From the IMG/VR virus record IMGVR_UViG_3300028925_012628: a stretch of DNA of 53,698 nucleotides; one strand, given 5' to 3'. Under the pieces are notes generated by a model. The model did not search any database and was not told where the DNA came from. It saw nothing but the letters and a program-made list of their open reading frames with translations. Shown here in pieces: positions 1 through 48,251 of this stretch. Source of the DNA: a virus. A program made the position numbers and the translations under genes. Position 1 is the first letter of the stretch; every line of letters starts with the position of its first letter.

Positions 1-99
1 TACATTACCAATGGTTTGTCCTGTACCAGTATCTACATTACCAATGGTTTGTCCTGTACCAGTATCTACATTACCAATGGTTTGTCCTGTACCAGTATC
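1..99. repeat. Three perfect copies of a 33-bp coding tandem repeat, TACATTACCAATGGTTTGTCCTGTACCAGTATC (minus-strand peptide DTGTGQTIGNV)
   Basis: Direct reading: units at 1-33, 34-66 and 67-99 are identical. Confidence 0.95.
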
Positions 100-20447: not shown

Positions 20448-20570
20448 TTATAGATTACAACCAGCAATCATTGTACTGACCCAGAAGCCCATAGACAATG
20501 TTAAGAAGAACCAAATGGTCGCCTTACTAATAAATTTGAGCGTAAAACTTGGTCTATGGTTTACTTTCAT
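20448..20570 (-). CDS. Possible 40-aa membrane peptide (doubtful)
   Basis: Hand-found ORF MKVNHRPSFTLKFISKATIWFFLTLSMGFWVSTMIAGCNL. No clear RBS; it abuts the iteron array. Confidence 0.2.
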   Translation of the reverse strand: MKVNHRPSFTLKFISKATIWFFLTLSMGFWVSTMIAGCNL

Positions 20571-20575
20571 AAAAA

Positions 20576-20710
20576 TCCGCTTTAATCCGGTTTAGTCCGC
20601 TTTAATCCGCTTTGTCACAAATACACCTATAAACAGGGCATTTTGAAACATCCGGTTTAATCCGGTTTAATCCGGTTTGTTCCGGTTTGTTCCGGTTTGT
20701 TCCGGTTTGC
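20576..20710. repeat. Iteron array: 10 copies of the 10-bp unit TCCG(G/C)TTT(A/G)N, in blocks of 4 (20576-20615) and 6 (20651-20710) separated by 35 bp
   Basis: Direct reading: TCCGCTTTAA TCCGGTTTAG TCCGCTTTAA TCCGCTTTGT ... TCCGGTTTAA x2, TCCGGTTTGT x3, TCCGGTTTGC. Confidence 0.9.
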
Positions 20711-20722
20711 GGTTGGCATCAA

Positions 20723-21991
20723 TTATAATTCCAAGTTACCCCACGCCCAAACGGCATCTTTGACATCGTCGAACCCAATCATCCGTCTTTCTTCAGGAAA
20801 TAAGATAAATGTGGGACATGTTGGTATTGCTCGACTATATCCATACTGATGCGCGTAAGGGCTGAGGATCTGATAACTACCTGGACGTGCTGCGTACCTT
20901 TTCAGGCCATGTCGAATGAATGCTTCGCATGCTGCTTCATGATGATGGCATATAACCCCGATATCGAATAGATCAGTGCCATATTCGTAATGTCGCTTAA
21001 CAGCATGGGTCTGATTAAGAGATGAGTTGAATCTTCCACTCTGATGTCGGACCATCATCTTATATTCCTGACCTGCCACTGATATGTTCAACCTTGCCTC
21101 GGCAGGTGCGTAACATATCTTGTTTTGCTTGGCGATCTCCCCGAGAAAGTCCACTCCTCCAATCTGAGCTGTCCATGCGTCGTGATTACCGGAGATGATA
21201 GTTAATATCTTGTCTCCGAACAGCTGAAGGTAGTGATCGAACAGCTTCCACTGCTGATCTGGGGAAGATTGGGCGTGAATCAGGGCACTTCGGTGTTTGA
21301 TATGGTTATCAACGCCATCTCCTCCGAATACAGCGTAGAATCCGGGGGTATCACGGATTAGTTCCGCATCTTCCCGCAATCGTTCGAAATCACAGGTAGA
21401 GCCTGGGGCTATATGCTGATCACTGATAACTGAGATAGCAATCGGTCCCTTTTCAAAGCTGACATCAAAAACACCGTTGTTGATCGCTTTCCTTATCGCT
21501 TTCTTCCCCCGCTTCTCCGCGGATGCCCACGCCTTGTCTGGGTCATAATCGTCCTTCCACTGGGAGGTTACGCTTACTTTGCCAGCTTTGGGGTCATCTC
21601 CAACGACAATCTTCGTTGGGGAAAGTGATTTACTTTCCACATCGTCTATTTCCGCATCCGCAGCCTCATTTAGTTTCCTATTAGCCTCATCTAGCTGTCG
21701 TCGCAGCACAGCACTCTCCATCTTGTCTACCTCCCGATCCATCTGGATAGGCGGCCCCGCAAAATTTTGTTGGGGATTGCTGCTACCTTTATCGGTACTG
21801 GGAGCTGGTTTCATCCAGTGTTGCCCTTTGGGTGTTGCAGGCAATTCCCCGTCTTTACGGAACTTGGCGATTCTCCCCCGCACTGTTGGACCGGTGGTCC
21901 CTAGCATAGCTGCTGTCTCCACAGCTGAGATACCTCCAAGGTAGTTCTGTTTAACTAATGCTTCATCGTTGTCTGTCCACTGGTGAGCCAT
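20723..21991 (-). CDS. GcrA-like N-terminal HTH fused to a calcineurin-like metallophosphoesterase
   Basis: Track ORF, 422 aa. The N-terminal QWTDNDEALVKQNYLGGISAVETAAMLGTTGPTVRGRIAKF resembles the GcrA N-domain. The C-terminal half has the metallophosphatase motifs SDQH, GGDGVDNH, SGNHD and CHHHE. RBS AAGGA. Confidence 0.65.
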   Translation of the reverse strand: MAHQWTDNDEALVKQNYLGGISAVETAAMLGTTGPTVRGRIAKFRKDGELPATPKGQHWMKPAPSTDKGSSNPQQNFAGPPIQMDREVDKMESAVLRRQLDEANRKLNEAADAEIDDVESKSLSPTKIVVGDDPKAGKVSVTSQWKDDYDPDKAWASAEKRGKKAIRKAINNGVFDVSFEKGPIAISVISDQHIAPGSTCDFERLREDAELIRDTPGFYAVFGGDGVDNHIKHRSALIHAQSSPDQQWKLFDHYLQLFGDKILTIISGNHDAWTAQIGGVDFLGEIAKQNKICYAPAEARLNISVAGQEYKMMVRHQSGRFNSSLNQTHAVKRHYEYGTDLFDIGVICHHHEAACEAFIRHGLKRYAARPGSYQILSPYAHQYGYSRAIPTCPTFILFPEERRMIGFDDVKDAVWAWGNLEL

Positions 21992-28739: not shown

Positions 28740-28786
28740 TGCTACCCTTATAGGTAGTTAATATTAACCCCAAGATTTAGGAGAAC

Positions 28787-30878: not shown

Positions 30879-30923
30879 AGACTGTTGCATTGTCTACCGA
30901 TATAGGTAGAATAAGGAGACAAG

Positions 30924-31103
30924 ATGGATGGGTACTGGACGGTAGCTGAAGCTGCTGAAGCAATCGGAGTAACCACTGGACGTATTCGCCAGATGTTAAG
31001 GGCAGATATTATAAGTGGTAAGAAGATAGGTCCACGCATGTGGGTTATCGGAGACGAAGAAGTACAACGAGTTTGCAAAGGACGACAAGGTGCTAGTACT
31101 TAA
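30924..31103 (+). CDS. Small HTH DNA-binding protein (excisionase/MerR-like, 59 aa)
   Basis: Hand-found ORF MDGYWTVAEAAEAIGVTTGRIRQMLRADIISGKKIGPRMWVIGDEEVQRVCKGRQGAST, one residue below the track cutoff. AAGGAG lies 5 nt upstream. Confidence 0.65.
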   Translation: MDGYWTVAEAAEAIGVTTGRIRQMLRADIISGKKIGPRMWVIGDEEVQRVCKGRQGAST

Positions 31104-31275
31104 AAGAAAACAAGGCGAAGTTATTACCATCGGTGATGAAATTGAGATTCATATCATCAAGGTTTATTCCGACAGGGTAAGTGTTGGGGTCATCGCCCCT
31201 GACAACGTAGCCGTGCATCGAAAGGAAGTTGCTGAGCAAATTAAGTCTCAGCTTAAAGATGAGCCTGCTGACTAG
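31090..31275 (+). CDS. csrA: CsrA/RsmA-family RNA-binding regulator homologue
   Basis: Track ORF, 61 aa. It aligns without gaps to my recollection of the E. coli CsrA sequence (also 61 aa), with about 22 identities. Conserved elements include ML.L.R..GE, IGDE, GV.AP..V.VHR.E. GTG start; overlaps the upstream HTH gene by 14 nt. Confidence 0.8.
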   Translation: MLVLKRKQGEVITIGDEIEIHIIKVYSDRVSVGVIAPDNVAVHRKEVAEQIKSQLKDEPAD

Positions 31276-31612
31276 CAACTTTGATATCAACGATGAAGAG
31301 GCAAAGATAATTGGCAACAGGGTTGCAGTCCTGTTAGCTAGAGGGAACTTTGATGCAGCATACAATGCTGTGACGATGGCAGAGTTTTCCATACAAGACA
31401 AACCGAATGCTGTGTTACATGATGTACCACTAGCACAGTCGACACTAAACGTGCGGCTGCTTAACTTGTTAGAGTGCTACCAGATATTTACCTTTGGTGA
31501 TCTAGCAGGTCGGACGATAGAGTGGTTCATCTCTCTGCCTAACGCAGGTGATGTGGCTCTCGGTGAATTGCAGGATGTAATCGCATACGAGATAAAGAGG
31601 AGAAGACAATGA
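31259..31612 (+). CDS. Protein with an RNA polymerase alpha-subunit C-terminal-domain-like (HhH) module
   Basis: In-frame ATG in track ORF 31229..31612. STLNVRLLNLLECYQIFTFGDLAGRTIEWFISLPNAGDVALGELQDVIA fits the alpha-CTD pattern L.VR..N.L....I...GDL...T......PN.G.....E..DV.A. Confidence 0.6.
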   Translation: MSLLTSNFDINDEEAKIIGNRVAVLLARGNFDAAYNAVTMAEFSIQDKPNAVLHDVPLAQSTLNVRLLNLLECYQIFTFGDLAGRTIEWFISLPNAGDVALGELQDVIAYEIKRRRQ

Positions 31613-31905
31613 AAGAGGTAGAACATAGCGTAAGGATGTTGATGCAGGTAGGTGAGAACACACGCTACGTACAAAAGTTCTTCGATGTAATTGTGAACGA
31701 GGAAATAGAGACACGAACATTGACGTGCATGTCAGGTGGCCATACCTACGTGTACATCTTTACCCCAGACACCGCTTGGGACTGCATGGAAAAAGCATTT
31801 GACCATGCAATGAGCGATGATCTGACCCTGACCCTAGATGATGCGGAGGCATTGTCGATTACTATGGAGGAAATTATCAATGGCAAAGGAACTTTTGAAA
31901 TGTAG
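31609..31905 (+). CDS. Hypothetical protein (98 aa)
   Basis: Track ORF; ATGA overlap; GAGGAG RBS. Confidence 0.55.
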   Translation: MKEVEHSVRMLMQVGENTRYVQKFFDVIVNEEIETRTLTCMSGGHTYVYIFTPDTAWDCMEKAFDHAMSDDLTLTLDDAEALSITMEEIINGKGTFEM

Positions 31906-32713
31906 CAGTGCGGAATACTTCGCACGACCAGAAGTTAACAACTCTTCTATGAAATGCTTTAGGCAATCTGGACCGTGGTCTTACTACCACAATTGCGAAT
32001 GCCGTAGCATCAGTGAACCTAAGAGATCAGACGCTATGCGTATCGGTTCTCTGTTCCATAAGCATATGGAATGCTTGACGCTAGGTGAGCAGCTGATTGA
32101 CCACTGTCATGTGCTGCCTACCCACATGGATGGTGACCCGATTAACAATCGCAAGCCAGCCCACCGTGAGTATCTCTCTACCTTCAAGGAGGATGCAGAG
32201 AACAGCGATAAGATCTGGGCAACTGAGGATGAGGTGTATCAGGTATTGCAGATGTGCGAGACCTCAGTCAACAGCGGTGCAGCTAACGACTTGATGAGTG
32301 CAAAGGGACTAATCCCTGAAGCTGTAGCTACCAATCGCATAGAGGATATTGATGTTAAAGCAATGAGTGACCTGTATCATCCAGACAATAATGTGCTGGT
32401 TGACTTCAAAACTACTCGTTGTGCGGACAGCTCGGCCTTCACAAGGGAAGCCATTTTTAAATATGGCTACCACTTTCAGGCGGCACACTACTGCGATGTC
32501 TTCGAGGCTAAACAGTTCTTCATCATAGCGGTGAGAAACTTTGAACCTTATGAGACCATGGTGTATGAGGTACCCCCAGCTTTGATTGAAGAAGCTAGGG
32601 AAATTAATCACGAGACCCTTCGACAGATTCGTGACTGTCGTGAACTGGGTACGTGGCACAGCCCCGGATGGGGAAAAGTTATTACGTTGGAGAAAGACTA
32701 TGACAAAAAGTAA
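31880..32713 (+). CDS. PD-(D/E)XK exonuclease, RecE/DUF3799-like
   Basis: In-frame ATG in track ORF 31838..32713 with a GGAGGA RBS. Motifs GSLFHKHME and VDFKTTRCADSSAFTREAIFKYGYHFQAAHY. Confidence 0.65.
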   Translation: MAKELLKCSSAEYFARPEVNNSSMKCFRQSGPWSYYHNCECRSISEPKRSDAMRIGSLFHKHMECLTLGEQLIDHCHVLPTHMDGDPINNRKPAHREYLSTFKEDAENSDKIWATEDEVYQVLQMCETSVNSGAANDLMSAKGLIPEAVATNRIEDIDVKAMSDLYHPDNNVLVDFKTTRCADSSAFTREAIFKYGYHFQAAHYCDVFEAKQFFIIAVRNFEPYETMVYEVPPALIEEAREINHETLRQIRDCRELGTWHSPGWGKVITLEKDYDKK

Positions 32714-37115: not shown

Positions 37116-38747
37116 ATGTTTCTAAAACAATCAACAGCATATACATTTCGCATGGGTCCGTTCTTAGATGAGACGGATGGCAAGACAGCAGAGACAGGGT
37201 TGACTATTTCACAAGCAGATGTACGTCTATCAAAAGGAGGCGGTAACTTTGCACAGAAGAATGAATCTACATCAGCTAGTCATGATGAGATTGGTTACTA
37301 TATTGTGCTCCTCGACGCAACGGACACAGCCACAGTAGGTGAGCTGCTTGTAGCTGTCCATGAATCAGGTGCTCTACCTGTATTCAAAACCTTTCAGGTT
37401 GTAGAAGAAGCAATCTATGATGCCATCTACGGTGGCAGTGCTAACCTTATTACCAAGGTAGATGCAATTGATACCGTAGTAGATGCTATCCTCGTGGATA
37501 CTGGCACAACTCTGGATGGAAAGATAAATACTATCGACACAGTGGTTGATTCAATCCTCGTGGACACAGCGGAGATTGGCTCCGCAGGGGCTGGGCTAAC
37601 AGGAGTGCCATGGAACGCAGCATGGGATGCAGAGGTACAGAGTGAATGTGCTGATGCCCTAGTTGCTATAGGTCTTGACCATCTTGTGTCTGCCTCTGTT
37701 GCAGGTAGTGATGTTGTTGACAACTCTATCGTTGCCAAGCTAGTGTCCAAAGAATCTACAGCAGACTGGGATGACTTTGTAAATACTACAGATAGTCTTC
37801 AGGCTCTCCGAGATAGGGGTGACGCTGCTTGGGCTGGTGGAGGTTCTGCTCCAACGGCTGCTGCTGTTGCAGATGCTGTATGGGATGAGGCTACCTCTGG
37901 ACACACAACCTCGGGCACCTTTGGTGAACAGGTCAAGACAGACATTGATGCTATCCTAGTTGACACCGGAACAACCATTCCAGCTACGATAGCTACAGTT
38001 GACACGGTGGTGGATGCCATACTCGTGGACACAGGGACGACACTGGACGTGAAATTAAATAATATTGATGCCTTCCTAGACACAGAGGTGGCAGCAATCC
38101 TAGCTGACACGAATGAACTACAAGGTGACTGGGCAAACGGTGGTAGACTTGACCTGCTGGTAGACTCAATCATATCCAAGGTGGATGTGGTCGATGGCAT
38201 AGTAGACACCGTCCTAGCAGATACTGCTGAGTTGCAAGGTGATTGGGTAAACGGTGGTAGACTCGATCTATTGCTAGACTCTGTGATTGCCAAGGTAGAT
38301 GTAGTCGATGGCATTGTGGACTCAATCCTAGTAGACACAGGCACAACGCTTGATGGTAAGATCAACACCATAGATACCGTCGTAGACTCTATCCTTGTGG
38401 ATACCGCAGTGATTGGCTCAGCTGGAGCAGGATTGTCAGGTGTTCCATGGAATGCTGCGTGGGACGCTGAGGTGCAGTCTGAGGTCGCTGATGCACTGGC
38501 TGCCTATGATCCGCCAACTAAGGCTGAGATGGACGCTATGTGGACCACAGCGGCTACAGAGAGCTATGCGTCTGACGGTGCAGCAGCTACACCGGCCCAG
38601 CTATTGTACATGATACTGTGTGCAGTCAGTGAGTTCTCTGTATCTAGTACCACTATCACAGGCAAGAAGGTAGACGGTAGCACAACTGCCATGACATGGA
38701 CGCTTGATGATGCATCAAGTCCCACCAGCAGAACAAGGGCTAGCTAA
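37116..38747 (+). CDS. Fibre-like protein built from (I/V)LVDT / VDTVVD repeats
   Basis: Track ORF, 543 aa. A 53-aa block at 37488-37646 is repeated at 38325-38483. Two 33-aa LADTxELQGDWxNGGRLDLL units lie between them. Confidence 0.6.
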   Translation: MFLKQSTAYTFRMGPFLDETDGKTAETGLTISQADVRLSKGGGNFAQKNESTSASHDEIGYYIVLLDATDTATVGELLVAVHESGALPVFKTFQVVEEAIYDAIYGGSANLITKVDAIDTVVDAILVDTGTTLDGKINTIDTVVDSILVDTAEIGSAGAGLTGVPWNAAWDAEVQSECADALVAIGLDHLVSASVAGSDVVDNSIVAKLVSKESTADWDDFVNTTDSLQALRDRGDAAWAGGGSAPTAAAVADAVWDEATSGHTTSGTFGEQVKTDIDAILVDTGTTIPATIATVDTVVDAILVDTGTTLDVKLNNIDAFLDTEVAAILADTNELQGDWANGGRLDLLVDSIISKVDVVDGIVDTVLADTAELQGDWVNGGRLDLLLDSVIAKVDVVDGIVDSILVDTGTTLDGKINTIDTVVDSILVDTAVIGSAGAGLSGVPWNAAWDAEVQSEVADALAAYDPPTKAEMDAMWTTAATESYASDGAAATPAQLLYMILCAVSEFSVSSTTITGKKVDGSTTAMTWTLDDASSPTSRTRAS

Positions 38748-39073
38748 TGGCGATTAAAGATATCATTGTACCTGGGTTTATCGGCTCAGGAACTGTTGAA
38801 TACATAGTCAATCGTGGCTTTGAGGCTGACCTTTCAGGTATTGGGCTCGATGTCATTGGTGCTACTAGGTTTGACTTCAACTATGATCAGTATGTTATTA
38901 CCCAGCTTAGTGATGGGACTATCAAACTGAACAAGGGTTATCAGAAGTATGAGATAACCGAAGTCTTGCCAGCAGCCACAGACGTAGTAGCATCCCACTC
39001 ACTTCTATCAAGTGATCAGATTGCATACCAGCTAGGCGACGGCACACTGAAGTTCAGCAAAGGTGTTAGTTAG
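38747..39073 (+). CDS. Hypothetical protein (108 aa), last plus-strand gene
   Basis: Track ORF; TAATG overlap with the fibre-like gene. Confidence 0.55.
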   Translation: MAIKDIIVPGFIGSGTVEYIVNRGFEADLSGIGLDVIGATRFDFNYDQYVITQLSDGTIKLNKGYQKYEITEVLPAATDVVASHSLLSSDQIAYQLGDGTLKFSKGVS

Positions 39074-42000
39074 CATACGCTGCTGCCGTGCGTCTGGCAT
39101 AGGATGCCTTACTGGCCTCACTACCTAGCTTCTTATACAACAGGTATGCTTCAAGCTCGTCCGGCGACAATGAACCCAGTCTATTCTCTGGCACATACAT
39201 CTTACTAAACTTGCTGACGTTTGGATTACGACTGAGGATCTCTTCAATCCTTTGTTGTAGTAACTTATTCCGATTACCAACGAGGTCAGTATCTGTTATG
39301 CGTACACCAGATAATGCTGGAACCGTTCTGGCTAGTATATTAGCCACACTTATATTTCCATCCTCGCCCCTAATGGGTCGCCGTGGCCAGTCGGTTAATG
39401 ACCGAGCAGTTGATACAGCCCTACCATATCCAGGAAGCCTGCTTAACAATGCATCTAACTGGACGCTAGGATACTTAGGCAATTGTTCTGATCCAGATAC
39501 CTGCCCGATTAACCTCGCAGTAGGAGATTTCATTTCCGAGAAAGGACGCTGATGAAAGAACGAGTAATCAGCCATGTGTTCCACGGGTGCCTGCAATAGC
39601 GGATTGGCCCTGCTCATCAAGCCTCCACCAATTCTCTTGACTGTATCTAATACACCATGGCCTGGTTTGAGTAGGCTAAACACATCCTCGGCACCGCCAA
39701 TCATTCCACCCATGTTAGTCAAGTACCGGTTCATTCCTGAATCAGTCTTTCCTAAAGGCACACTAACACCAGTAGATATCCAATCAGGTATTGGCTCGTT
39801 GGGATCTTCCATTGAGCGTTTAGCTGAGGTTAGACCCTTAGTCATCATTGACATTCCACTGCTAGGATTGCTTAGCTCCTCCAAGACAAATGGAATCTGT
39901 CGTCTAGTAAACGTATAGAAGGGAATGATTCTACGGAAGTAATGTCTTTCCATCTGAGACAGTGCCTTGTAGTCCACCTGAGTTAGCTTGACCTTTGCAA
40001 TGGCATCAGGTAGGCTCATACCTTTTCTTAGGTAAGCAATGACAGGAGCCATTCGCAGATAGTATTCTGCCTCGTTTCCAAGTTGGTAACCGGCGGCTCG
40101 GACTCTCTCAGTTCCTCTTCCTAGCTGTCTAAGACCAGGAAGATTTCCACCCAGTTCCTTTTCGGATATAGACATTGCTTCCGTGAGCCTCTCACCAAAG
40201 CTGGTGTTAGGATTAACAGCATCACCTGCCTGATTGATACTAGGGATAATACTTTCCTTAGAATTTAAGAAACTCCCTACTCTATCCGATCCTTCAACAG
40301 CCGTGTCAGACATGTGCTGGCCAGGCCCAAGCAGCTCACCGCCAACAACACCATCAATCAGTTCCTGTGATGCAGCTTCGTCTGACAATCCCCTGCCTCT
40401 GAAGTATTCAACACTACCTAGGCCTTCTACACCATTACCCTTACGCAATGCCTTGGCATCTAGATACGGCTTTATCCACCTCATTGGACCCCACTGGTCT
40501 GGATCAAATGCTCCGCCGTACATGCTGTTAACAAAACCAGAGACAACATTACGGACATGGAATGCTGGCCACATGCTTGTAGCGTATTGTTTAAACAAGT
40601 CAGTGAACCAAATAGTCGCTGCCTGTAGCTCACTCTTAACATCATGCTTAACAAAAGAGCTGAGGTATCTCGTAAGGTCGCCACCTATCTCAGGATCAAT
40701 GACCATATTCTCGAACAGATTCTCGCCATGTTCTTTTAGGAATGAGTTAGAAAATTCATCCGTGTTATATAGAGAACTTCGTGGTATTGGATTGTCTATC
40801 CCCGTTAGGAATACCACCGCATCATCAACAACTTCCTCAACAGCCTCAGCAACAGCAGGCTTAGGGGATATCTTGGGTAGCACTGTCTCCGAAACATTTC
40901 CAGGTACCGTACTCAACGCCCTCGTAGGTGGCAGCTTAGTAGGGATGTCCTGAATGTTCAGCTTTCCAAATCCTGGAATAGAAGATGCTTGGTCTATCAG
41001 ACTTTGTGTTGAGCCTTGAGTACCTGTAGTGGGTAGAAGGTATGCATTGTTCTCACCATTTACCCAGCTATTTACCCACTCTGCTTCAGTTCTTGTTCCA
41101 TCTACTGCGGAATGGGGGTCGTACATCTTCGGAGCTGGCAAGCTATCCACCTGCTCTTTAGTTAAGACATACACGTTCATGTGTCTCTGAGGCTTAGGTG
41201 GAACTTGGGCAGCGGCCTCAATGTTTTCTAGGATAGTCTTTTCTATACGATGCTGTCCATGAATAACAACTACCTCACCGCCAGGCAATGTAATAGCCAT
41301 TGCAGGGTTATTGGAATTTGCCTTCTCTGTCATCATCTCTAGCACGTCGTCAGAGTACTCATTGTCTATGTAGTAACTACGCAGTGCTGGCACATCTTCT
41401 GGTTTAACTATCGTTGATTTTATATCAAGCCTGGTGGTCGCAATGTATGCTTCGAATACATCTATATCTTTACCACCTACTGTTACCACCATCTCGCCAG
41501 CGTCTGGGCTTTTAATATCTAGAGACTTTGCTATGTCAGATAGATTTTTCTGATCAACAACTACGGGAACTCTCGCCCCGCTAGCATCTATTGTCCAATG
41601 CTTCTTCTGTCCTGTCATTGCGTCACCAACTTGGTCACGCAATGACTCAAGGTCATTCACCACCTTGGGAGTCAAAGCGTTGGTTCTTCCTATGACTCTT
41701 TCTATCTCTGCCATTAGGTCACGGCCACCACCAAACCCAAGCACAAATTGGTTTGGCATCTCAGGTGGCTTCACCTGACTAACACCATCATCAAAGTATT
41801 CAACCAACTCCTCGTAATCTTGTGACACATGGCCCTGTAGATGTGCGTTCTCTATAGTATCTATCTCATCTAACTCAAGATACGGTTGCAGTTTTTTAGG
41901 GATAGTAACAACTAACTCATCCATATTATCGGCACTTACCAATGGACCTATCTCTTCTTTTGGAAGAGGTGCTTTGCCTTTATTGATATCATCCAAAGCC

Positions 42001-45000
42001 TCCAAAAGATCCATTTGCACTTTCTGAACAGTGCTATCTGTAGCTTTGGCAATCGCTGCATTGTTTACAGATGCTTCAATCTCCTCGGGAGTGAGACGGA
42101 TGGTCGATCTTTCTTTATTGCCCGCTTTCTGTGCTGCATTTAGTTTCGTTCTGAGAGATTTAGGGATTCCCTTTAATGCAAGAATCTGCTTAACTGTTCC
42201 TAACGGAATCGTGAATGAAGTATATCCAGGGATCTCATCGGCTACACTGGCAGGGATCTCATCGGCTACCTTATTAAACCCTGAGTAATCACCTGCGTTC
42301 CACGACTTTCTTAAAGGGTCAATCTGAGCCCGAGTGTCAGCATGAAACCGCTTCACTCCCGCAGGCATATCCCCAAGGTGATTTTCAATGATGTTGATTT
42401 CATCAGGGTTTAATTCAAAGATACCTGAACCGCTTTTTTTATCTAACAATGTAGTAAATTTAGCATGTAGTTCAGGTCCACCTACTCCGTGCTCCACAAT
42501 ATGCTTAGCAGTTCCGTGGGTTATCTTCACTGGAGCCAAGGAGTCTACTCGGGGTGGGGCGTTGGGCATGTCAACCCACCCTTCTACTGGTGCTTGATCA
42601 TCTATTGTACGAATAAACGACTCGTCCATTGCCGCTGCTTCGTCAGAATAGTCCACGCCTTCACCAACAACTCTTTGTGCTACTGGGGTATCTGTTGCTG
42701 CTACTACATCTTCTGCTACATCTGCTGTTGCTGCTACTACTGGAGTATCTGTTGCTGCTACTACTGGGGCAACATTCTGTGTCGGCAACTCGCTCTTCCT
42801 TGCAACACTCTTAACTGTTACCTCGTTGATAGAATCCCAGTTGTTATCACTCAGGTATTTAGCAATCTGTTCTTCTGTTTCGATGCCCTGCTTAGCGAGA
42901 AGATTGTAGAGTTCATCCACATTCTTAAATGAAACACGGTCGCCACTTCCTATTGCAAAGCCACCTGGATTCTTAAACCATTCGGCTATCTCTGGACCCC
43001 ACGTACTCTCCGCACTTAGAGCGTATGCTTCCATGTGTGCCCACTCTTCTGGATTGTGGGTCTTAACCCGCTGTAACACATTACGCTTAGCAATCACTGT
43101 GTCCATATCTAAAGACTTAAACAGATCTCGTAGATTAACTAAGTCCCGACCAGAGGTTTTCGTTAGCTCATTGTACCCCTCTGAGAACCGTGCATAGGCA
43201 TGTGTCGCAGCAATCTCACCGACTAGCTTAGCCGCAGTACCTGCCCGCATCACATCTTCATAGTAATCTGTTGCTGCTTTAATTGGGTCGGCAGAATAGA
43301 TACGCATACCTTTGCCTGCCGCATCTGGATTTCCCTCGGCAAGCATCTTTGCTATTTCCCTAATCTTCGGACTCCCCTTATCAACAGCAACTAGAATTTC
43401 TTCTCCATTACGGATTCCTGTAAATAGTTCTCCCGCATTCCTGGAGGCAGCAATAGCAGCTGCATCTGTAACTTCTGCCATTACCCCATCGTCTATCAAT
43501 CGCAACAGATATTCCTCGTCCATCGCAGCATCTATCCAGTGTTCATCCTTTACTAACTTATCTATTAAATCCTCTACTGGCTTCTCAAGTATACTACCTT
43601 GAGCCCGTGAGAAATTATCTTGTCCGTACTTTTTGAACCAACGGTTGAGTGTCCACGTTCCGCCCTTGATGTTCCGAAGATAATCCTGTCGTTGATGCTG
43701 TCTTCCTGTGATTGGGTTTAAGTTTTTAGGAGAGCTGACTAACTCATCCCCTTCTCGGGCCACGATGCTTCCGTATGTTTCTTTGTTTTTGTTATCCCGT
43801 GCTTCCTTTATTCTCGCTGACAGACTTTGCTTAGGTGTTTTTGTGATGGTACGAGGATCGTATAAGGCATAGTCATCCGTCAGACGTTCGATGTTAATGC
43901 CATTCTTTTGGGAGTAGTTAAATGATTCGTCGCCCATCGCCTTGAGGATACCTAACTCTTGACTCACCGTTCGTGTTGTTCCATCAGGCATCTGAGTTTT
44001 TATGTCTGCCATGGATGATGGCAATCTTGGACTAACACGACCCTTCACTACACTGCTAGGCATGGCGAGTGCCCAGTCATCTGGATTGTTTCTTGCGAGT
44101 TTCCGCATTCCGTCGACGGCTTGGGATATCTGGTCAGGTGTATTAGCTTGCTTGAGACTATCAATGATACCCGTGTAAGCGGAGTCAAGTTCGTTCAGTG
44201 CTTTTTCATCAACATCCCCAGCAAGTCCTTTCAGTATCCGCTTGTTGGAACTAGCCATGCGGGCTAACTCACTAGCGTAGGAGAGATCGTACTCAGGGAG
44301 CTCCAATGCATCTGTTCCATCCTTGAACTGCCATCCTTCTTGGGACAGACCTATCGCATCCCTGTTTCTCTCTATTTCTTTAAGGGCTTCTTCCTTTACA
44401 AGATGTGGTTTCTGCTTCATCAACTCATCAATATTGAGTAATGGAGTCTTAGCTAGGCGAACACGCATAGACTCGGTTAATATGCGACCCTGATGGGCAG
44501 ATGATTCCATCCTGCGGACGTGTTCAAGAATATCTTCTTGGACATCTATCGTGCGTGCATCCCATAGCATCTTAGGATTGAATACTCTGTTGGCGTGTAA
44601 CCCTAACCAACTTCCCCGCAACTTCTTGCCACCAAGATCAAGTGCCCTGTGATACGAATCAAAGCCTTTGCCTAAACCTGTATCAAGTCCAAGGTTGTAA
44701 TTACGCATCTTCGCTTTTTCAGGCAACCAACCTAGCAGGGTCTTACGTATTCCCTTGTTTGTGTTGGCACCACTAAACAGAGTTGGAACACCATACTCGA
44801 ATGTTGCACCAAGCGACTCTGCCCCAACCTCACTTATCTTTCGGTTGAGAGCGGCACCCTCTAGTGTTGGATGTAGTGATGAAATTGCAGAGGTCAGGAT
44901 ATCCTTTGCACTCATCTGTGACGACACCCCTGGAACGTCCAGCACTTCGGTTAGGTTGTCTAGTAACTTAGTGGGGATAATTGGGCCAGTTCTTTGCTTA

Positions 45001-45866
45001 TACTTCTGCACATCAGCGGCTGCCTCCAGCACAGAGTCCGTCTTAATCCTAGTCATTAACTGACTCTCTGTTAAGCGAACACTAGCCATTGCCGCTTCAT
45101 TAACTTTCCTTGCCTGTACCGCCGCTTCAGGGCTATGCTTCAATGCACTTGCAATCTCCTCTTCACCACGTTTAAACGCATCAATGAAGTTTTTGCCTGG
45201 TGTATCGAGAACGCCACTTTTCCTTAGCAAGCTATTTGCGACATCATCATACTTAGCAGCACCCTTAACTACATTCATTGCAGTTGATTTACCAAGTGCC
45301 TTGCCGCCTTGGTTGAGCACCCTTGTTCCTTTAACCAATCCACCGCCTATAAAAGTTCCTGGATCTAATAAGATCTCCGCTAAGAATCCAGCAGTATCGC
45401 CCCAGTCTAGGCCCTCTTTGTTCTCGCCTAGAGCACCCCATGACTCCAGCATCTCACGACCACCGGTGTAGTCTTCACGCTTAGTCAACCCAACCCTGTC
45501 ACTTATAAGTCCCAGTGGACCTGTACTCAATAGCTCACGAGGTTTTCCTGCCAGCAACCCACGGATAGCCCGTCCACCAAACATGTGGTCGAATGTTTCC
45601 CCAACAAACTGTAGGCCAGACAGTAGCCCACCGCCAATCTTTTCCAGCACCCCTTCTTCAGCTTCGGGAGTGAGCTGGTTATACATGGGTCCAGAAGATT
45701 TGGCTTGCTCTACTAACGCCTTCTGCGTTTCCACTGGCGATGCCTTGCTGATCGGTCGTTGGTACATAGCAGCAATGTCAGGCACAGCAGGAGCACCACC
45801 CAGCGTAATAGGTTGAAGACCAAGTTTTCGTAATCGTGCATTGAGTTCAGCTAGTGGATCTTGCAT
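39066..45866 (-). CDS. Giant 2266-aa virion/ejection-type protein of unknown function
   Basis: Track ORF; the last gene of the minus-strand late operon. I recognised no catalytic motif apart from a weak ParB-like VVVIHGQHRIEK. Confidence 0.7.
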   Translation of the reverse strand: MQDPLAELNARLRKLGLQPITLGGAPAVPDIAAMYQRPISKASPVETQKALVEQAKSSGPMYNQLTPEAEEGVLEKIGGGLLSGLQFVGETFDHMFGGRAIRGLLAGKPRELLSTGPLGLISDRVGLTKREDYTGGREMLESWGALGENKEGLDWGDTAGFLAEILLDPGTFIGGGLVKGTRVLNQGGKALGKSTAMNVVKGAAKYDDVANSLLRKSGVLDTPGKNFIDAFKRGEEEIASALKHSPEAAVQARKVNEAAMASVRLTESQLMTRIKTDSVLEAAADVQKYKQRTGPIIPTKLLDNLTEVLDVPGVSSQMSAKDILTSAISSLHPTLEGAALNRKISEVGAESLGATFEYGVPTLFSGANTNKGIRKTLLGWLPEKAKMRNYNLGLDTGLGKGFDSYHRALDLGGKKLRGSWLGLHANRVFNPKMLWDARTIDVQEDILEHVRRMESSAHQGRILTESMRVRLAKTPLLNIDELMKQKPHLVKEEALKEIERNRDAIGLSQEGWQFKDGTDALELPEYDLSYASELARMASSNKRILKGLAGDVDEKALNELDSAYTGIIDSLKQANTPDQISQAVDGMRKLARNNPDDWALAMPSSVVKGRVSPRLPSSMADIKTQMPDGTTRTVSQELGILKAMGDESFNYSQKNGINIERLTDDYALYDPRTITKTPKQSLSARIKEARDNKNKETYGSIVAREGDELVSSPKNLNPITGRQHQRQDYLRNIKGGTWTLNRWFKKYGQDNFSRAQGSILEKPVEDLIDKLVKDEHWIDAAMDEEYLLRLIDDGVMAEVTDAAAIAASRNAGELFTGIRNGEEILVAVDKGSPKIREIAKMLAEGNPDAAGKGMRIYSADPIKAATDYYEDVMRAGTAAKLVGEIAATHAYARFSEGYNELTKTSGRDLVNLRDLFKSLDMDTVIAKRNVLQRVKTHNPEEWAHMEAYALSAESTWGPEIAEWFKNPGGFAIGSGDRVSFKNVDELYNLLAKQGIETEEQIAKYLSDNNWDSINEVTVKSVARKSELPTQNVAPVVAATDTPVVAATADVAEDVVAATDTPVAQRVVGEGVDYSDEAAAMDESFIRTIDDQAPVEGWVDMPNAPPRVDSLAPVKITHGTAKHIVEHGVGGPELHAKFTTLLDKKSGSGIFELNPDEINIIENHLGDMPAGVKRFHADTRAQIDPLRKSWNAGDYSGFNKVADEIPASVADEIPGYTSFTIPLGTVKQILALKGIPKSLRTKLNAAQKAGNKERSTIRLTPEEIEASVNNAAIAKATDSTVQKVQMDLLEALDDINKGKAPLPKEEIGPLVSADNMDELVVTIPKKLQPYLELDEIDTIENAHLQGHVSQDYEELVEYFDDGVSQVKPPEMPNQFVLGFGGGRDLMAEIERVIGRTNALTPKVVNDLESLRDQVGDAMTGQKKHWTIDASGARVPVVVDQKNLSDIAKSLDIKSPDAGEMVVTVGGKDIDVFEAYIATTRLDIKSTIVKPEDVPALRSYYIDNEYSDDVLEMMTEKANSNNPAMAITLPGGEVVVIHGQHRIEKTILENIEAAAQVPPKPQRHMNVYVLTKEQVDSLPAPKMYDPHSAVDGTRTEAEWVNSWVNGENNAYLLPTTGTQGSTQSLIDQASSIPGFGKLNIQDIPTKLPPTRALSTVPGNVSETVLPKISPKPAVAEAVEEVVDDAVVFLTGIDNPIPRSSLYNTDEFSNSFLKEHGENLFENMVIDPEIGGDLTRYLSSFVKHDVKSELQAATIWFTDLFKQYATSMWPAFHVRNVVSGFVNSMYGGAFDPDQWGPMRWIKPYLDAKALRKGNGVEGLGSVEYFRGRGLSDEAASQELIDGVVGGELLGPGQHMSDTAVEGSDRVGSFLNSKESIIPSINQAGDAVNPNTSFGERLTEAMSISEKELGGNLPGLRQLGRGTERVRAAGYQLGNEAEYYLRMAPVIAYLRKGMSLPDAIAKVKLTQVDYKALSQMERHYFRRIIPFYTFTRRQIPFVLEELSNPSSGMSMMTKGLTSAKRSMEDPNEPIPDWISTGVSVPLGKTDSGMNRYLTNMGGMIGGAEDVFSLLKPGHGVLDTVKRIGGGLMSRANPLLQAPVEHMADYSFFHQRPFSEMKSPTARLIGQVSGSEQLPKYPSVQLDALLSRLPGYGRAVSTARSLTDWPRRPIRGEDGNISVANILARTVPALSGVRITDTDLVGNRNKLLQQRIEEILSRNPNVSKFSKMYVPENRLGSLSPDELEAYLLYKKLGSEASKASYARRTAAAYAN

Positions 45867-45899: not shown

Positions 45900-48251
45900 T
45901 TATTGACCGCCCCCGTATCCCCCAGTACCCATTCCGGCTGTGTTATTGGGAGCAGGGTTAAATCCTGGAGCCATGTATTGACTTCTATTTTGCAACGCCT
46001 CTATCTCTGCAATATTTGGAGGCATTTCGCCATTACCAGTCATTAATGAATTAAAAAACTCAGTTACCATTTTCCAAACTACAGGGTCTATTGATTCCGG
46101 TGGGGTGCTAAGCATAACATTACCATAACGAGGCATTCCTAGATTCAGCTTTGAACCTAGTGCTATCAATCCATCTGCACTGCCTAGTTTTCTGCTACCT
46201 CGTATTAAAGCTATTACATTCCGCGCTGCCGCAATCATACCTACACCAGTGGCATCAAAATCTAATGCATCCTGAACAGGTGATAACATACCCATCTCTT
46301 GCAATTGTGCATTAGCCTCATCCAGCGGAATAGTATCGTCAGTATTCAACTCTGGCGTGCCTTCAGTGGTCGTGGTTTCCTCTCCCACTTCAGCTGTTGA
46401 CTCTTCTGCCATCACATCTGTTAGCTCTTCAGTGGTAGGTTCACCACCTGCCTCCAATTCGTCAATGTTAGTTTCTATATCTAGAATTTCTTGTTCTATT
46501 AAATCAATCTGATCCTGGATCTTTCTTTGTTTATCTTGACTCGGCTCTCCATTTTTCTTTGCCAGCAATGCGAGGTGAGCATTCTTCAGATCAGCCAGCT
46601 TAAGTCTTCCATCTACAAGTGCATCTTGCTTCGCTTCTGCTGCATCTTCACGATCCCCTTTCCTCTCGCTGCTTCTTCTATTTGCGTCCCCCTCTGCTTT
46701 ATCTACTTCTGCCTTAGACGCTGCTGCCTTGGCATCTATCTCACCCTTGGCTTCCAGAAGTGCTAAGTCTTTCTGGTGATCATTGAGCGTGTTGTCAGAA
46801 TCAATCTTAGCCTCTGCCTCTGCCTTAGCCTTTACTGCATCAGCGGCTATCTGAGCTATCCTGACCGACGCAGCCTCATCACCATAAGCAAATGGGTTCT
46901 CTGGATTACGCCAGCCTTTGTCAATTTTTCTATTTCTAGCCAGCAATCCCTTGCGTCGTTCCTTTTTGCTGATTCGTTTTCCTGCTGTAGACTCTGCTCT
47001 GCCTGCTTGACTCTCAGATATGTACTGATCCTGCTCAGAATAAGGTTCGTCATCAGCTGCCCTTGCGTATCCACCCTTAGCCTGTCGCATACGTACCTTG
47101 CCGGATGACTCCTTGTCTCGTCCCTGTTGTTCACGAGCACCAGGTTTATCTCTGAAAATCACTCTCGTTATATTGCCATTCTCGTCCTTCACTTCTATAC
47201 GGTCCTTGAGCGATTTGTCATACAGACCACCACCAACAGTACCCTCTGTAGTTTCGGTAACTGGAATGGAGTCATTGCCTGGCTCGTGACCTGCGTCAAT
47301 CAACGCTCTGTTCTTGTCTTCATTCTCTTTATTGAGACGACGCTGCGTATCAGCCATCTCATCATTCATGGTTCCCTTCGTGCGTTTGTCCATCTCAACA
47401 TCCATTGCTGCATTTCTAATGGCTTCCTCAGCATGGTACTTCTGAACCCACGGGGAATCTTCTGGAGATATTGGACCACCATCACGTCTGCCGGAATCAA
47501 GGTTATCAATGCGTCTTTGTGCCTCGTCGGCATCCATCTGGTCCTTGGGATTTTCATAGCCAGCACTGTTTGGATTTGCCAAGCGTTCCTCAGAAGCTGC
47601 ATCATCCTCCTCAATAATTTCTGTAGTGCGTTCATTGAATTCTTTTTGTGTCTCAGTATGGGCATCAAATTTTTCATCGAAGCGAGCACCATCAACAGCC
47701 ATCTCTCCTGCGATTCTTTCCTCTTCCTCTTCCATCCCCATAAAACCTTTGCGGCCTTCTTCTAGGGCTTCGCTGCTAGCCTTGCCAGTATAGTATTCCA
47801 TCTCTTGCTCTGATGGCATTTCGGGCTCACCACCATGTTCAGGCTCGACAGTTGTATCCACTCCCCTGTTTAACTCTTCTTCTTCTTTAGTTAGTTGACG
47901 GACGGTTTCAGGAACTGGTTCGTCCCCCCTCCTAAGATCTGTCTCGATGGCAGATGATTCAACTTCAGGCATAACCGGTGGGGCAATACCTGCTTCTGCG
48001 ATGTTGGCAGGCGGTTGCACTGCGCTTAACATCATAGATTCCATAGATTGCCCTGTTGGATCTTCCATTGCAAAACGATCATCGGGTTTCCGAACTTGCG
48101 TTTCACGAAGCAGACCACCGCCGGGACCAGCCGATGCCTCAGCAGTAGCTAACGCCCTAGCATCCTCTTGAGAGATTCTTCCCCCACTCGCTGAACGGAT
48201 TTCTCTAACTCGTCGGTCTATTTGTTGTCGTGGTTGTTCGTATGTAGCCAT
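45900..48251 (-). CDS. Acidic 783-aa virion/ejection-type protein
   Basis: Track ORF 45900..48263. The ATG at 48251 overlaps the upstream TAA (TAATG). Long D/E/K-rich and coiled regions. Confidence 0.65.
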   Translation of the reverse strand: MATYEQPRQQIDRRVREIRSASGGRISQEDARALATAEASAGPGGGLLRETQVRKPDDRFAMEDPTGQSMESMMLSAVQPPANIAEAGIAPPVMPEVESSAIETDLRRGDEPVPETVRQLTKEEEELNRGVDTTVEPEHGGEPEMPSEQEMEYYTGKASSEALEEGRKGFMGMEEEEERIAGEMAVDGARFDEKFDAHTETQKEFNERTTEIIEEDDAASEERLANPNSAGYENPKDQMDADEAQRRIDNLDSGRRDGGPISPEDSPWVQKYHAEEAIRNAAMDVEMDKRTKGTMNDEMADTQRRLNKENEDKNRALIDAGHEPGNDSIPVTETTEGTVGGGLYDKSLKDRIEVKDENGNITRVIFRDKPGAREQQGRDKESSGKVRMRQAKGGYARAADDEPYSEQDQYISESQAGRAESTAGKRISKKERRKGLLARNRKIDKGWRNPENPFAYGDEAASVRIAQIAADAVKAKAEAEAKIDSDNTLNDHQKDLALLEAKGEIDAKAAASKAEVDKAEGDANRRSSERKGDREDAAEAKQDALVDGRLKLADLKNAHLALLAKKNGEPSQDKQRKIQDQIDLIEQEILDIETNIDELEAGGEPTTEELTDVMAEESTAEVGEETTTTEGTPELNTDDTIPLDEANAQLQEMGMLSPVQDALDFDATGVGMIAAARNVIALIRGSRKLGSADGLIALGSKLNLGMPRYGNVMLSTPPESIDPVVWKMVTEFFNSLMTGNGEMPPNIAEIEALQNRSQYMAPGFNPAPNNTAGMGTGGYGGGQ

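What the first reader, a model, noticed from the sequence alone, without database searches (positions are those of the whole stretch)
30924..31612. Overlapping three-gene module: small HTH protein, CsrA homologue and an RNAP alpha-CTD-like protein
Three genes overlap by 14 and 17 nt, so they are probably co-translated. The middle one is the same length as E. coli CsrA as I recall it (61 aa) and matches it without gaps, including the VHR.E RNA-binding region. The third carries a module matching the helix-hairpin-helix signature of the RNA polymerase alpha C-terminal domain. CsrA proteins bind GGA motifs in 5' leaders and Shine-Dalgarno regions. Alpha-CTD is the docking surface for UP elements and class I activators, and other phages such as T4 target it by ADP-ribosylation. 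Together the module could rewire host translation through CsrA mimicry or competition with CsrB-type sponge RNAs. It could also rewire host transcription through an alpha-CTD decoy. I am not aware of this combination having been described.
Basis: partly seen in the sequence, partly recalled or inferred. Interest (0 to 1): 0.8.

Follow-up and report, generated by a model that had tools for sequence, protein, structure and literature searches.

The report
Phage CsrA cassette with alpha-CTD-like partner
An uncultured marine phage carries a conserved, tightly overlapping three-gene cassette: a small DNA-binding protein, a genuine CsrA-type RNA-binding translational regulator, and a small protein built around a copy of the RNA polymerase alpha C-terminal domain. 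It appears to be an undescribed pairing of regulators of host translation and transcription, but no function has been tested.

Summary
Three same-strand genes (30924-31103, 31090-31275, 31259-31612) overlap by 14 and 17 nt. The middle gene is a CsrA-family protein (Pfam 69.6 bits). It aligns without gaps to E. coli CsrA and keeps L4 and R44. The third gene scores below Pfam's threshold on its own. Its family profile matches solved RpoA C-terminal domains (E 6e-13). An AlphaFold model (pLDDT 81.5) superposes on alpha-CTD structures at about 1 Å. The first gene is an excisionase/MerR-type winged HTH.

The trio, with its overlaps, recurs in marine phage contigs down to about 34% identity and is under purifying selection. 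A promoter-like site with a palindrome in its spacer is conserved upstream.

The alpha-CTD-like family also occurs without CsrA, and some phage CsrA genes lack this partner, so the two are not obligate partners. The DNA-contacting residues R265, N268 and G296 are conserved. The sigma-contact and CAP-contact patches are not.

Best reading: an early regulatory cassette made of an autoregulating HTH, a CsrA translational regulator and a DNA-binding alpha-CTD mimic. The mechanism is inferred, not shown. Phage CsrA is already known. I found no description of this pairing.

The parts
30885..30912 (+). Promoter-like site: TTGCAT, a 16-nt spacer, then TAGAAT. It ends 11 nt before the g1 ATG, so a transcript from it would have almost no leader.
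   Evidence: Read from the sequence. It is weaker than the scan tool's threshold, so one search does not list it. The same layout is conserved upstream of the g1 homologue in L006 (TTGTAT-16-TAGAAT), L002 (TTGCAA-16-TAACAA) and L013 (TTGACA-16-TAGAAT). Function is inferred.
30895..30908 (.). Imperfect palindrome TACCGATATAGGTA in the promoter spacer. It is the candidate operator for the g1 HTH protein.
   Evidence: The invariant columns T-CCGA...GGTA hold across four lineages whose proteins have diverged to 34-76% identity. L002 carries the perfect core CCGATATCGG. A second similar palindrome, TACCCTTATAGGTA, lies at 28743-28756 in the gap before the SSB gene. Binding has not been tested.
30924..31103 (+). 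g1: a 59-aa winged-HTH protein of the excisionase / MerR-like HTH_17 type.
   Evidence: Alone it is sub-threshold (HTH_17 E 0.01; TIGR01764 excisionase E 6e-4). Four of five orthologues match HTH_17, the best at 1.6e-9, and all five match Rv2175c_wHTH. The family profile matches PDB 4j2n 'Gp37' at E 1.2e-4. The protein is identical in L001, with two synonymous changes only.
31090..31275 (+). g2: a 61-aa CsrA-family RNA-binding protein with a GTG start, overlapping g1 by 14 nt.
   Evidence: PF02599 at 69.6 bits. It matches the solved RsmE, RsmA and CsrA structures at E 4e-11 to 2e-10. M1, L2, L4, R6, V30, G33, P37, R44 and E46 are invariant across the cassette CsrAs and E. coli CsrA. L4 and R44 are the critical RNA-binding residues (PMC7652899). 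dN/dS is 0.07-0.11.
31259..31612 (+). g3: a 117-aa two-domain protein. The N-terminal part is a helical hairpin (residues about 12-47). The C-terminal part is an RNAP alpha-CTD-like helix-hairpin-helix domain (about 55-112) followed by a basic tail, KRRRQ. It overlaps g2 by 17 nt and has no Shine-Dalgarno sequence of its own.
   Evidence: R66, N69 and G97 correspond to E. coli R265, N268 and G296 (the E. coli sequence was verified). dN/dS is 0.22.
31609..31905 (+). Downstream 98-aa gene coupled to g3 by an ATGA overlap. Its function is unknown, and it is present in only some relatives.
   Evidence: Searches show homologues in L001, L006 and L008, while L002 and L013 lack it. It has no PHROG, Pfam or NCBIfam hit. 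It shows that the operon continues into the PD-(D/E)XK nuclease gene (31838-32713).

Best explanation
The three genes form a conserved early regulatory cassette of an uncultured marine tailed phage that relies on host RNA polymerase.

- g1 is a small winged-HTH protein. It most likely binds the palindrome in the spacer of the cassette's own promoter and sets the cassette's expression (inferred).
- g2 is a functional CsrA-family dimer. It would bind GGA-containing leaders or Shine-Dalgarno regions and so change the translation or stability of host and/or phage mRNAs. Family membership and intact RNA-binding residues are shown. The targets are unknown.
- g3 is made in step with g2 by translational coupling. 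It presents a free-standing alpha-CTD fold that keeps the minor-groove DNA-contact residues. It most likely binds A/T-rich, UP-element-like DNA, or a partner that uses the same surface such as NusA. It would then compete with or substitute for the host alpha-CTD and redirect host RNA polymerase (inferred).

On this reading the two effectors are independent proteins that this phage lineage expresses together. One acts on transcription and the other on translation.
For: - Identities: CsrA; alpha-CTD fold; winged HTH.
- Conservation of the cassette: HTH-CsrA-alpha-CTD-like is found with overlapping reading frames in L001/L084, L006, L002-L005, L008/L009/L089, L085-L088 and L013. CsrA is found immediately upstream in L010 and L012, whose contigs are too short to show the HTH gene. 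The g2/g3 overlap is 17-62 nt in all seven lineages.
- Purifying selection on g2 and g3.
- A conserved promoter-like site with a spacer palindrome.
- R265 and N268 equivalents are conserved in 24/26 family members, the G296 equivalent in 23/26, and the basic C-terminal tail is conserved.
- Independence of the two effectors: the alpha-CTD-like family occurs without CsrA, and viral CsrA occurs without it.
- Context: the cassette lies among SSB, nuclease, helicase and RusA genes in the plus-strand early arm. No phage RNA polymerase was recognised.
Against: - No biochemical activity has been tested.
- In the window's own clade the K297/K298/S299 equivalents are D/V/A, so DNA binding may be weakened.
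- g3 is acidic overall (15 D/E against 10 K/R by my own count from the sequence; no tool call).
- The persistent overlap of g2 and g3 is also what a stoichiometric complex would predict.
- The promoter is a weak consensus match in the window (8 of 12) and was not picked up by the scan.
- No enrichment of CsrA-type sites and no conserved GGA hairpin was found.
- The host is unknown.
Confidence: 0.5

Rival explanations
1. g3 is a dedicated protein partner of the phage CsrA. It could be an antagonist or timer, as FliW and CesT are. Alternatively it could be an adaptor that tethers CsrA to promoter DNA or RNA polymerase so that CsrA meets nascent leaders. Overlapping genes would give the 1:1 stoichiometry such a complex needs.
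For: The g2/g3 overlap of 17-62 nt is conserved in all seven CsrA-linked lineages, and g3 has no Shine-Dalgarno sequence. The N-terminal hairpin of g3 has no assigned function. The CsrA tails are acidic and the g3 tail is basic. Protein antagonists of CsrA that work at near-equimolar ratios are established (PMC7652899).
Against: Full-length family members with the same N-terminal hairpin occur with no CsrA gene nearby (P0014, P0020, P0037, P0039, P0064). Viral CsrA genes occur without it. The Pfam scans of g3 and its family returned no FliW or CesT family. The CsrA C-terminal tails are not conserved in sequence. No complex prediction could be run.
Confidence: 0.17
2. g3 is a helix-hairpin-helix DNA-binding accessory of the phage's recombination or replication machinery, not a transcription factor. 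CsrA is an unrelated neighbour.
For: The cassette lies directly upstream of a PD-(D/E)XK nuclease, a gene whose only family match is PHROG 'exonuclease' (an ERF-family gene sits at this position in L013), a helicase and RusA. CsrA-free family members sit beside an integrase (L016) and beside a 175-aa gene that I judged RuvC-like by eye, without a family search (L083). Pseudomonas phage CsrA also sits upstream of PD-(D/E)XK and RecT genes.
Against: The best matches by sequence and by fold are specifically RNAP alpha-CTD, not the HhH domains of RuvA, ComEA or polymerases. All top 50 PDB hits are alpha subunits. The alpha-CTD-specific residues R265 and N268 are conserved. Gene order in phage early operons is weak evidence of function.
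Confidence: 0.12
3. g3 is a decoy that soaks up host activators or sigma that normally dock on alpha-CTD. g2 acts by mimicking host CsrA or by titrating CsrB-type sponge RNAs.
For: The alpha-CTD fold is confirmed. CsrA membership is confirmed with intact RNA-binding residues. Others have proposed that phage CsrA homologues manipulate host Rsm/Csr pathways, including repression of CRISPR-Cas (PMC8450108).
Against: The host, its alpha-CTD and its Csr system are unknown. g3 is only about 26-36% identical to bacterial alpha-CTDs, so it is not a recent copy of a host surface.
Confidence: 0.1

Closest known systems
Phage- and plasmid-borne CsrA/RsmA homologues (for example the RsmM-type genes of Pseudomonas phages, Burkholderia phage DC1, plasmid RsmQ and Legionella ICE CsrT)
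   Same: A small CsrA-family protein of about 60 aa, with conserved RNA-binding residues, carried by a mobile element. In Pseudomonas phage PP9W it also sits in the early region upstream of PD-(D/E)XK and RecT genes (PMC8450108, PMC7366521).
   Different: It is only 41-43% identical to those phage proteins. Here CsrA is translationally coupled to a winged-HTH gene upstream and an alpha-CTD-like gene downstream. PP9W lacks both and instead has a C-terminal extension with no visible alpha-CTD motif, judged by eye.
C-terminal domain of the bacterial RNA polymerase alpha subunit (RpoA residues about 250-329, PF03118)
   Same: The same helix-hairpin-helix fold, with rmsd 0.9-1.3 Å over 53-61 residues and 26-36% identity. 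R265, N268 and G296 equivalents and the hydrophobic core are conserved.
   Different: It is free-standing, with no alpha-NTD and no linker to RNAP, and has an unrelated N-terminal helical hairpin. K298/S299 are replaced in the window's clade. The 261 and 287 determinants are not conserved.
Small phage proteins auto-annotated as 'RNA polymerase alpha subunit C-terminal domain-containing protein' (uncultured Caudovirales, Mycobacterium phage Mithril, Rhodococcus phage Finch)
   Same: Small phage proteins of 98-240 aa carrying the same domain. They are the top structural matches in the viral library.
   Different: The structural matches are weak (E 0.3-3), and no sequence-level relative exists in 50,697 cultured phage genomes. 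I found no functional study of any of them. Whether they are linked to CsrA was not examined.
CsrA-FliW and CsrA-CesT partner systems
   Same: CsrA is encoded with or acts with a small protein partner at defined stoichiometry (PMC7652899).
   Different: The Pfam scans of g3 and its family returned no FliW or CesT family. The g3 family also exists without CsrA.
Excisionase / AlpA / MerR-like HTH_17 regulators
   Same: g1 orthologues match HTH_17, and the family profile matches PDB 4j2n 'Gp37', which I recall (not checked here) to be a mycobacteriophage excisionase. The palindrome lies in the promoter spacer, where MerR-type proteins bind (my own knowledge).
   Different: No integrase is adjacent in the window. 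The spacer is 16 nt, not the 19-20 nt typical of MerR promoters. The window protein alone is below every curated threshold.

Membership tests
CsrA/RsmA family (PF02599) | Sequence match above the curated Pfam threshold across the whole domain | tested here: met
   69.6 bits against a cut-off of 27, covering profile positions 1-52 of 53. It matches solved CsrA, RsmA and RsmE structures at E 4e-11 to 2e-10.
CsrA/RsmA family (PF02599) | Critical RNA-binding residues L4 and R44, together with L2 and R6, conserved | tested here: met
   L2, L4, R6, R44 and E46 are invariant in the six cassette CsrAs and E. coli CsrA. The role of L4 and R44 is described in PMC7652899.
CsrA/RsmA family (PF02599) | Equivalog of the chromosomal global regulator (NCBIfam NF002469 / TIGR00202 cut-offs) | tested here: not met
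   67.2 bits against 73, and 64.4 against 70.1. It is a divergent family member, not an orthologue of the housekeeping CsrA.
CsrA/RsmA family (PF02599) | Binds GGA motifs in RNA and regulates translation | not testable with these tools
   This needs EMSA or complementation. No GGA-rich sponge and no conserved GGA hairpin was found in the window.
RNAP alpha C-terminal domain (PF03118) | Sequence match above the curated Pfam threshold | tested here: not met
   The window protein alone scores 16 bits against a cut-off of 23.8, E 0.0098.
RNAP alpha C-terminal domain (PF03118) | Profile-level homology to bona fide alpha-CTDs | tested here: met
   24 of 26 family members match PF03118, the best at 1.6e-15. 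The 26-sequence profile matches RpoA C-terminal domains at E 6e-13. The five-sequence close-clade profile matches at E 5e-4.
RNAP alpha C-terminal domain (PF03118) | Alpha-CTD fold | tested here: met
   The AlphaFold2 model has pLDDT 81.5 and pTM 0.68. The top 50 Foldseek PDB hits are all RNAP alpha, with target-normalised TM up to 0.87 and rmsd of about 1 Å. E-values are weak (at least 0.045) because the domain is small.
RNAP alpha C-terminal domain (PF03118) | DNA-binding '265 determinant' (R265, N268, C269, G296, K298, S299) | tested here: inconclusive
   The window has R66, N69 and G97, and the family conserves these in 24, 24 and 23 of 26 members. The window has L70, V99 and A100 at the 269, 298 and 299 positions. 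K298 is kept in 11 of 26 members.
RNA polymerase alpha subunit (RpoA) | Alpha-NTD assembly domain joined to the CTD by a linker | tested here: not met
   The protein has 117 aa. Its N-terminal 50 residues form a two-helix hairpin with no alpha-NTD match.
HTH_17 / excisionase-type winged HTH | Sequence match to PF12728 / TIGR01764 | tested here: inconclusive
   The window g1 is sub-threshold (16.5 bits against 27; 20 against 28.8). Four of five orthologues match HTH_17, the best at 1.6e-9, and the profile matches PDB 4j2n at E 1.2e-4.
FliW / CesT CsrA antagonists | Homology of the CsrA-adjacent protein to FliW or CesT | tested here: not met
   No such Pfam hit appeared for g3 or its 26-member family.

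The most novel reading that the evidence does not exclude
CsrA and the alpha-CTD-like protein form a stoichiometric complex. The alpha-CTD-like domain docks on promoter-proximal A/T-rich DNA, or on an RNAP-associated partner such as NusA. That would place CsrA where nascent 5' leaders emerge. If so, this is a phage-encoded device that physically couples control of transcription initiation to translational repression.
Probability: 0.1. Interest if true: 0.85.

Novelty: new variant of a known kind. Interest (0 to 1): 0.58.

Why it matters
Phage-encoded CsrA homologues have been catalogued, but the papers found here gave no mechanism for any of them, and I found no study at all of free-standing alpha-CTD proteins. 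This cassette is conserved, under selection and translationally coupled, and it puts the two together with a likely autoregulator. It is therefore a compact, clonable test case for how a phage that depends on host RNA polymerase could reprogram transcription and translation at once. If g3 binds UP-element DNA it would be a protein mimic achieving what T4 achieves by ADP-ribosylating alpha R265. If it binds CsrA it would be a third, unrelated class of protein partner for CsrA.

Tried and rejected
- Cultured-phage relatives. Megablast of the region, and tblastn of g3, P0009, P0011 and the large terminase, found nothing among 50,697 phage genomes.
- Prophage or host search. A g3-family pattern scan of 185,579 species genomes found no relative. 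The CsrA scan returned only 39-52% identical bacterial CsrAs from Zetaproteobacteria, marine Opitutales, Exiguobacterium and Planctomycetes. That scan is biased by the peptide patterns used and is not a host call.
- Shallow-alignment AlphaFold run. It failed with pLDDT 44. Only the 26-sequence alignment gave a usable model.
- CsrB/Rsm-type sponge RNA. There are no Rfam hits at gathering thresholds and no outlying cluster of ANGGA motifs.
- The densest GGA cluster. It proved to be two arrays of 10-nt period whose units read CCGGA or GCGGA rather than ANGGA. They vary in copy number among close relatives and are absent at 78% identity. I treat them as probable DNA-level repeats, not CsrA sites.
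- A CsrA autoregulatory hairpin presenting the csrA Shine-Dalgarno sequence. No conserved structure appeared in seven lineages.
- Defence-system models. The only hit was a generic HTH match of g1 to mad1.
- The antisense ORF 31093-31401 (102 aa). I reject it as a gene. It lies opposite two genes with clear family membership. Its low dN/dS frame (0.18-0.32) may be a side-effect of selection on the sense genes; I did not test this.
- Homology of the g3 N-terminal hairpin to the end of alpha-NTD. NCBIfam alignment envelopes hinted at this, but PDB profile alignments stop at about RpoA residue 232-240, so it is not supported.
- Broad alignments (A2, A3, A5) were too divergent for the pattern-based locus searches.

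Full report
**Setting.** The window is a phage-like contig of about 53.6 kb with 46% G+C. Both ends are the same 33-nt unit repeated three times, so the assembly closes through a tandem repeat. It encodes a portal, a large terminase, a major head protein and tail-fibre-like proteins on the minus strand. A plus-strand arm carries SSB, a PD-(D/E)XK nuclease, a gene whose only family match is PHROG 'exonuclease', a helicase and RusA. No phage RNA polymerase was recognised, and there are no tRNAs. Cultured phages hold no relative, even for the terminase. Related contigs come from marine metagenomes such as TARA.

**The observation.** g1 is 30924-31103 (59 aa). g2 is 31090-31275 (GTG start, 61 aa). 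g3 is 31259-31612 (117 aa). All close homologues of g3 begin at MSLL, which fixes its start at the ATG rather than the upstream TTG. The overlaps are 14 and 17 nt.

g2 matches Pfam CsrA at 69.6 bits against a cut-off of 27 and PHROG 'CsrA-like regulator'. It aligns without gaps to E. coli CsrA with 22/61 identical residues. It also matches the solved RsmE, RsmA and CsrA structures at E 4e-11 to 2e-10. L2, L4, R6, R44 and E46 are invariant in all cassette CsrAs, and L4 and R44 are the critical RNA-binding residues (PMC7652899). It falls just short of NCBIfam's equivalog cut-offs. It is therefore a divergent family member, not a copy of a housekeeping csrA.

**The third protein.** Alone, g3 is below the Pfam threshold for the alpha-CTD (16 bits against 23.8) and has only four close homologues. 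An exhaustive HMMER search found 109 proteins. About 25 of these are small, full-length relatives with one architecture: an N-terminal two-helix hairpin (RVxxLLxxGNFxxAH..AE) followed by a helix-hairpin-helix domain.

Several results place that domain in the alpha-CTD family:
- 24 of 26 family members match PF03118, the best at 1.6e-15.
- The family profile matches solved RpoA C-terminal domains at E 6e-13.
- The five closest sequences alone match E. coli alpha-CTD at E 5e-4.
- AlphaFold2 with five sequences failed (pLDDT 44). With 26 sequences it gave pLDDT 81.5 and pTM 0.68.
- All top 50 Foldseek hits in the PDB are RNAP alpha subunits. Target-normalised TM reaches 0.87, with rmsd of about 1 Å over 53-61 residues at 26-36% identity.

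The viral structure library holds small, uncharacterised phage proteins annotated with the same domain.

I aligned the family to E. coli alpha-CTD, after verifying that sequence against the PDB. R265 and N268 are conserved in 24 of 26 members and G296 in 23. K298 is kept in 11 of 26 and is V in the window. The 261 and 287 determinants vary. A basic C-terminal tail is conserved.

**The first protein.** g1 alone is sub-threshold. Four of five orthologues match HTH_17, and the family profile matches PDB 4j2n 'Gp37'.

**Conservation of the cassette.** CsrA lies immediately upstream of, and overlaps, the g3 homologue in seven lineages: the window clade, P0004, P0005, P0007, P0009, P0011 and P0013. 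These go down to about 34% g3 identity, and the overlaps are 17-62 nt. The HTH gene is present wherever enough upstream sequence exists. This includes L006 and L013, where gene callers missed it. Six of eleven IMG/VR CsrA loci carry the full trio. dN/dS is 0.07-0.11 for g2 and 0.22 for g3.

Upstream of g1 there is a promoter-like site (TTGCAT-16-TAGAAT in the window, TTGACA-16-TAGAAT in L013). Its spacer holds a palindrome (TACCGATATAGGTA, with the perfect core CCGATATCGG in L002). The site is conserved across lineages whose proteins have diverged to 34-44% identity. A similar palindrome precedes the SSB gene. The −10 element ends 8-11 nt before the ATG, so transcripts from this promoter would have almost no leader. 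That is an inference.

**Limits of the linkage.** Other full-length g3 relatives have no CsrA neighbour: P0014, P0020, P0037, P0039 and P0064. Five viral CsrA loci have neither partner. Pseudomonas phage CsrA likewise has no alpha-CTD-like neighbour. The two proteins are therefore separable units that this lineage co-expresses.

**Interpretation.** The best-supported reading is an early regulatory cassette with three parts:
- an autoregulating winged HTH;
- a CsrA-type translational regulator;
- a free-standing alpha-CTD mimic that probably binds minor-groove or UP-like DNA, or a partner using the same surface, to redirect host RNA polymerase.

Family membership, fold, conservation and coupling are shown. 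All activities and targets are inferred.

The main rival is a stoichiometric CsrA-g3 complex. The conserved overlap favours it. The matches are specific to alpha-CTD, and the activator and sigma contact patches are not conserved.

**Novelty.** Phage CsrA homologues are documented (PMC8450108; PMC7366521). Searches for alpha-CTD-like phage proteins, or for the CsrA pairing, returned nothing relevant. I rate this a new variant of a known kind.

Noticed in passing
window 20574-20613 and 20650-20709 (minus-strand intergenic region 20467-20723): Two arrays of 10-nt period, with 4 and 6 copies. On the minus strand they read GCGGATTAAA and CAAACCGGAA/TTAAACCGGAT. They flank a conserved 40-nt segment, and the second array ends at the ATG of a conserved 40-aa membrane-type ORF. 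This is the densest GGA cluster in the window (10 in 150 nt). Close relatives keep the arrays with different copy numbers, and a relative whose neighbouring exonuclease is 78% identical lacks them. They could be iterons, a pac/cos-type site or a regulator-binding array. The units do not fit the ANGGA form of CsrA sites.
   Followed up: partly
window 28743-28756: The palindrome TACCCTTATAGGTA lies in the short gap between the HTH_7 gene and the SSB gene. It resembles the spacer palindrome of the cassette promoter, so it may be a second operator for the g1 protein.
   Followed up: partly
window 39066-45866, 45900-48263, 48251-52303 (minus strand): Three very large consecutive ORFs of 2266, 787 and 1350 aa, about 13 kb in all. 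None has a Pfam or PHROG match.
   Followed up: no
window 1-99 and 53600-53698: Both ends of the window are three perfect copies of the same 33-nt unit, so the contig closes on itself through a tandem repeat. The true copy number is uncertain.
   Followed up: no
window 38121-38335: A 114-nt tandem duplication (1.9 copies, 80% match) inside the 543-aa ORF 37116-38747, which has no family match.
   Followed up: no
L018 (Pseudomonas phage PP9W, MZ773939.1 32242-32613): The annotated phage 'carbon storage regulator' has 123 aa: a CsrA domain plus a C-terminal extension of about 65 aa of unknown nature (phrog_5527). It too lies upstream of PD-(D/E)XK nuclease and RecT genes, so the genomic position of phage csrA recurs.
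   Followed up: partly
one search hit list (P0008, P0010, P0017 and others): Many large proteins (300-2300 aa) carry two to eight tandem copies of the alpha-CTD-like domain, including a group of about 440 aa with the match near residues 280-345. These multi-copy architectures were not examined.
   Followed up: no
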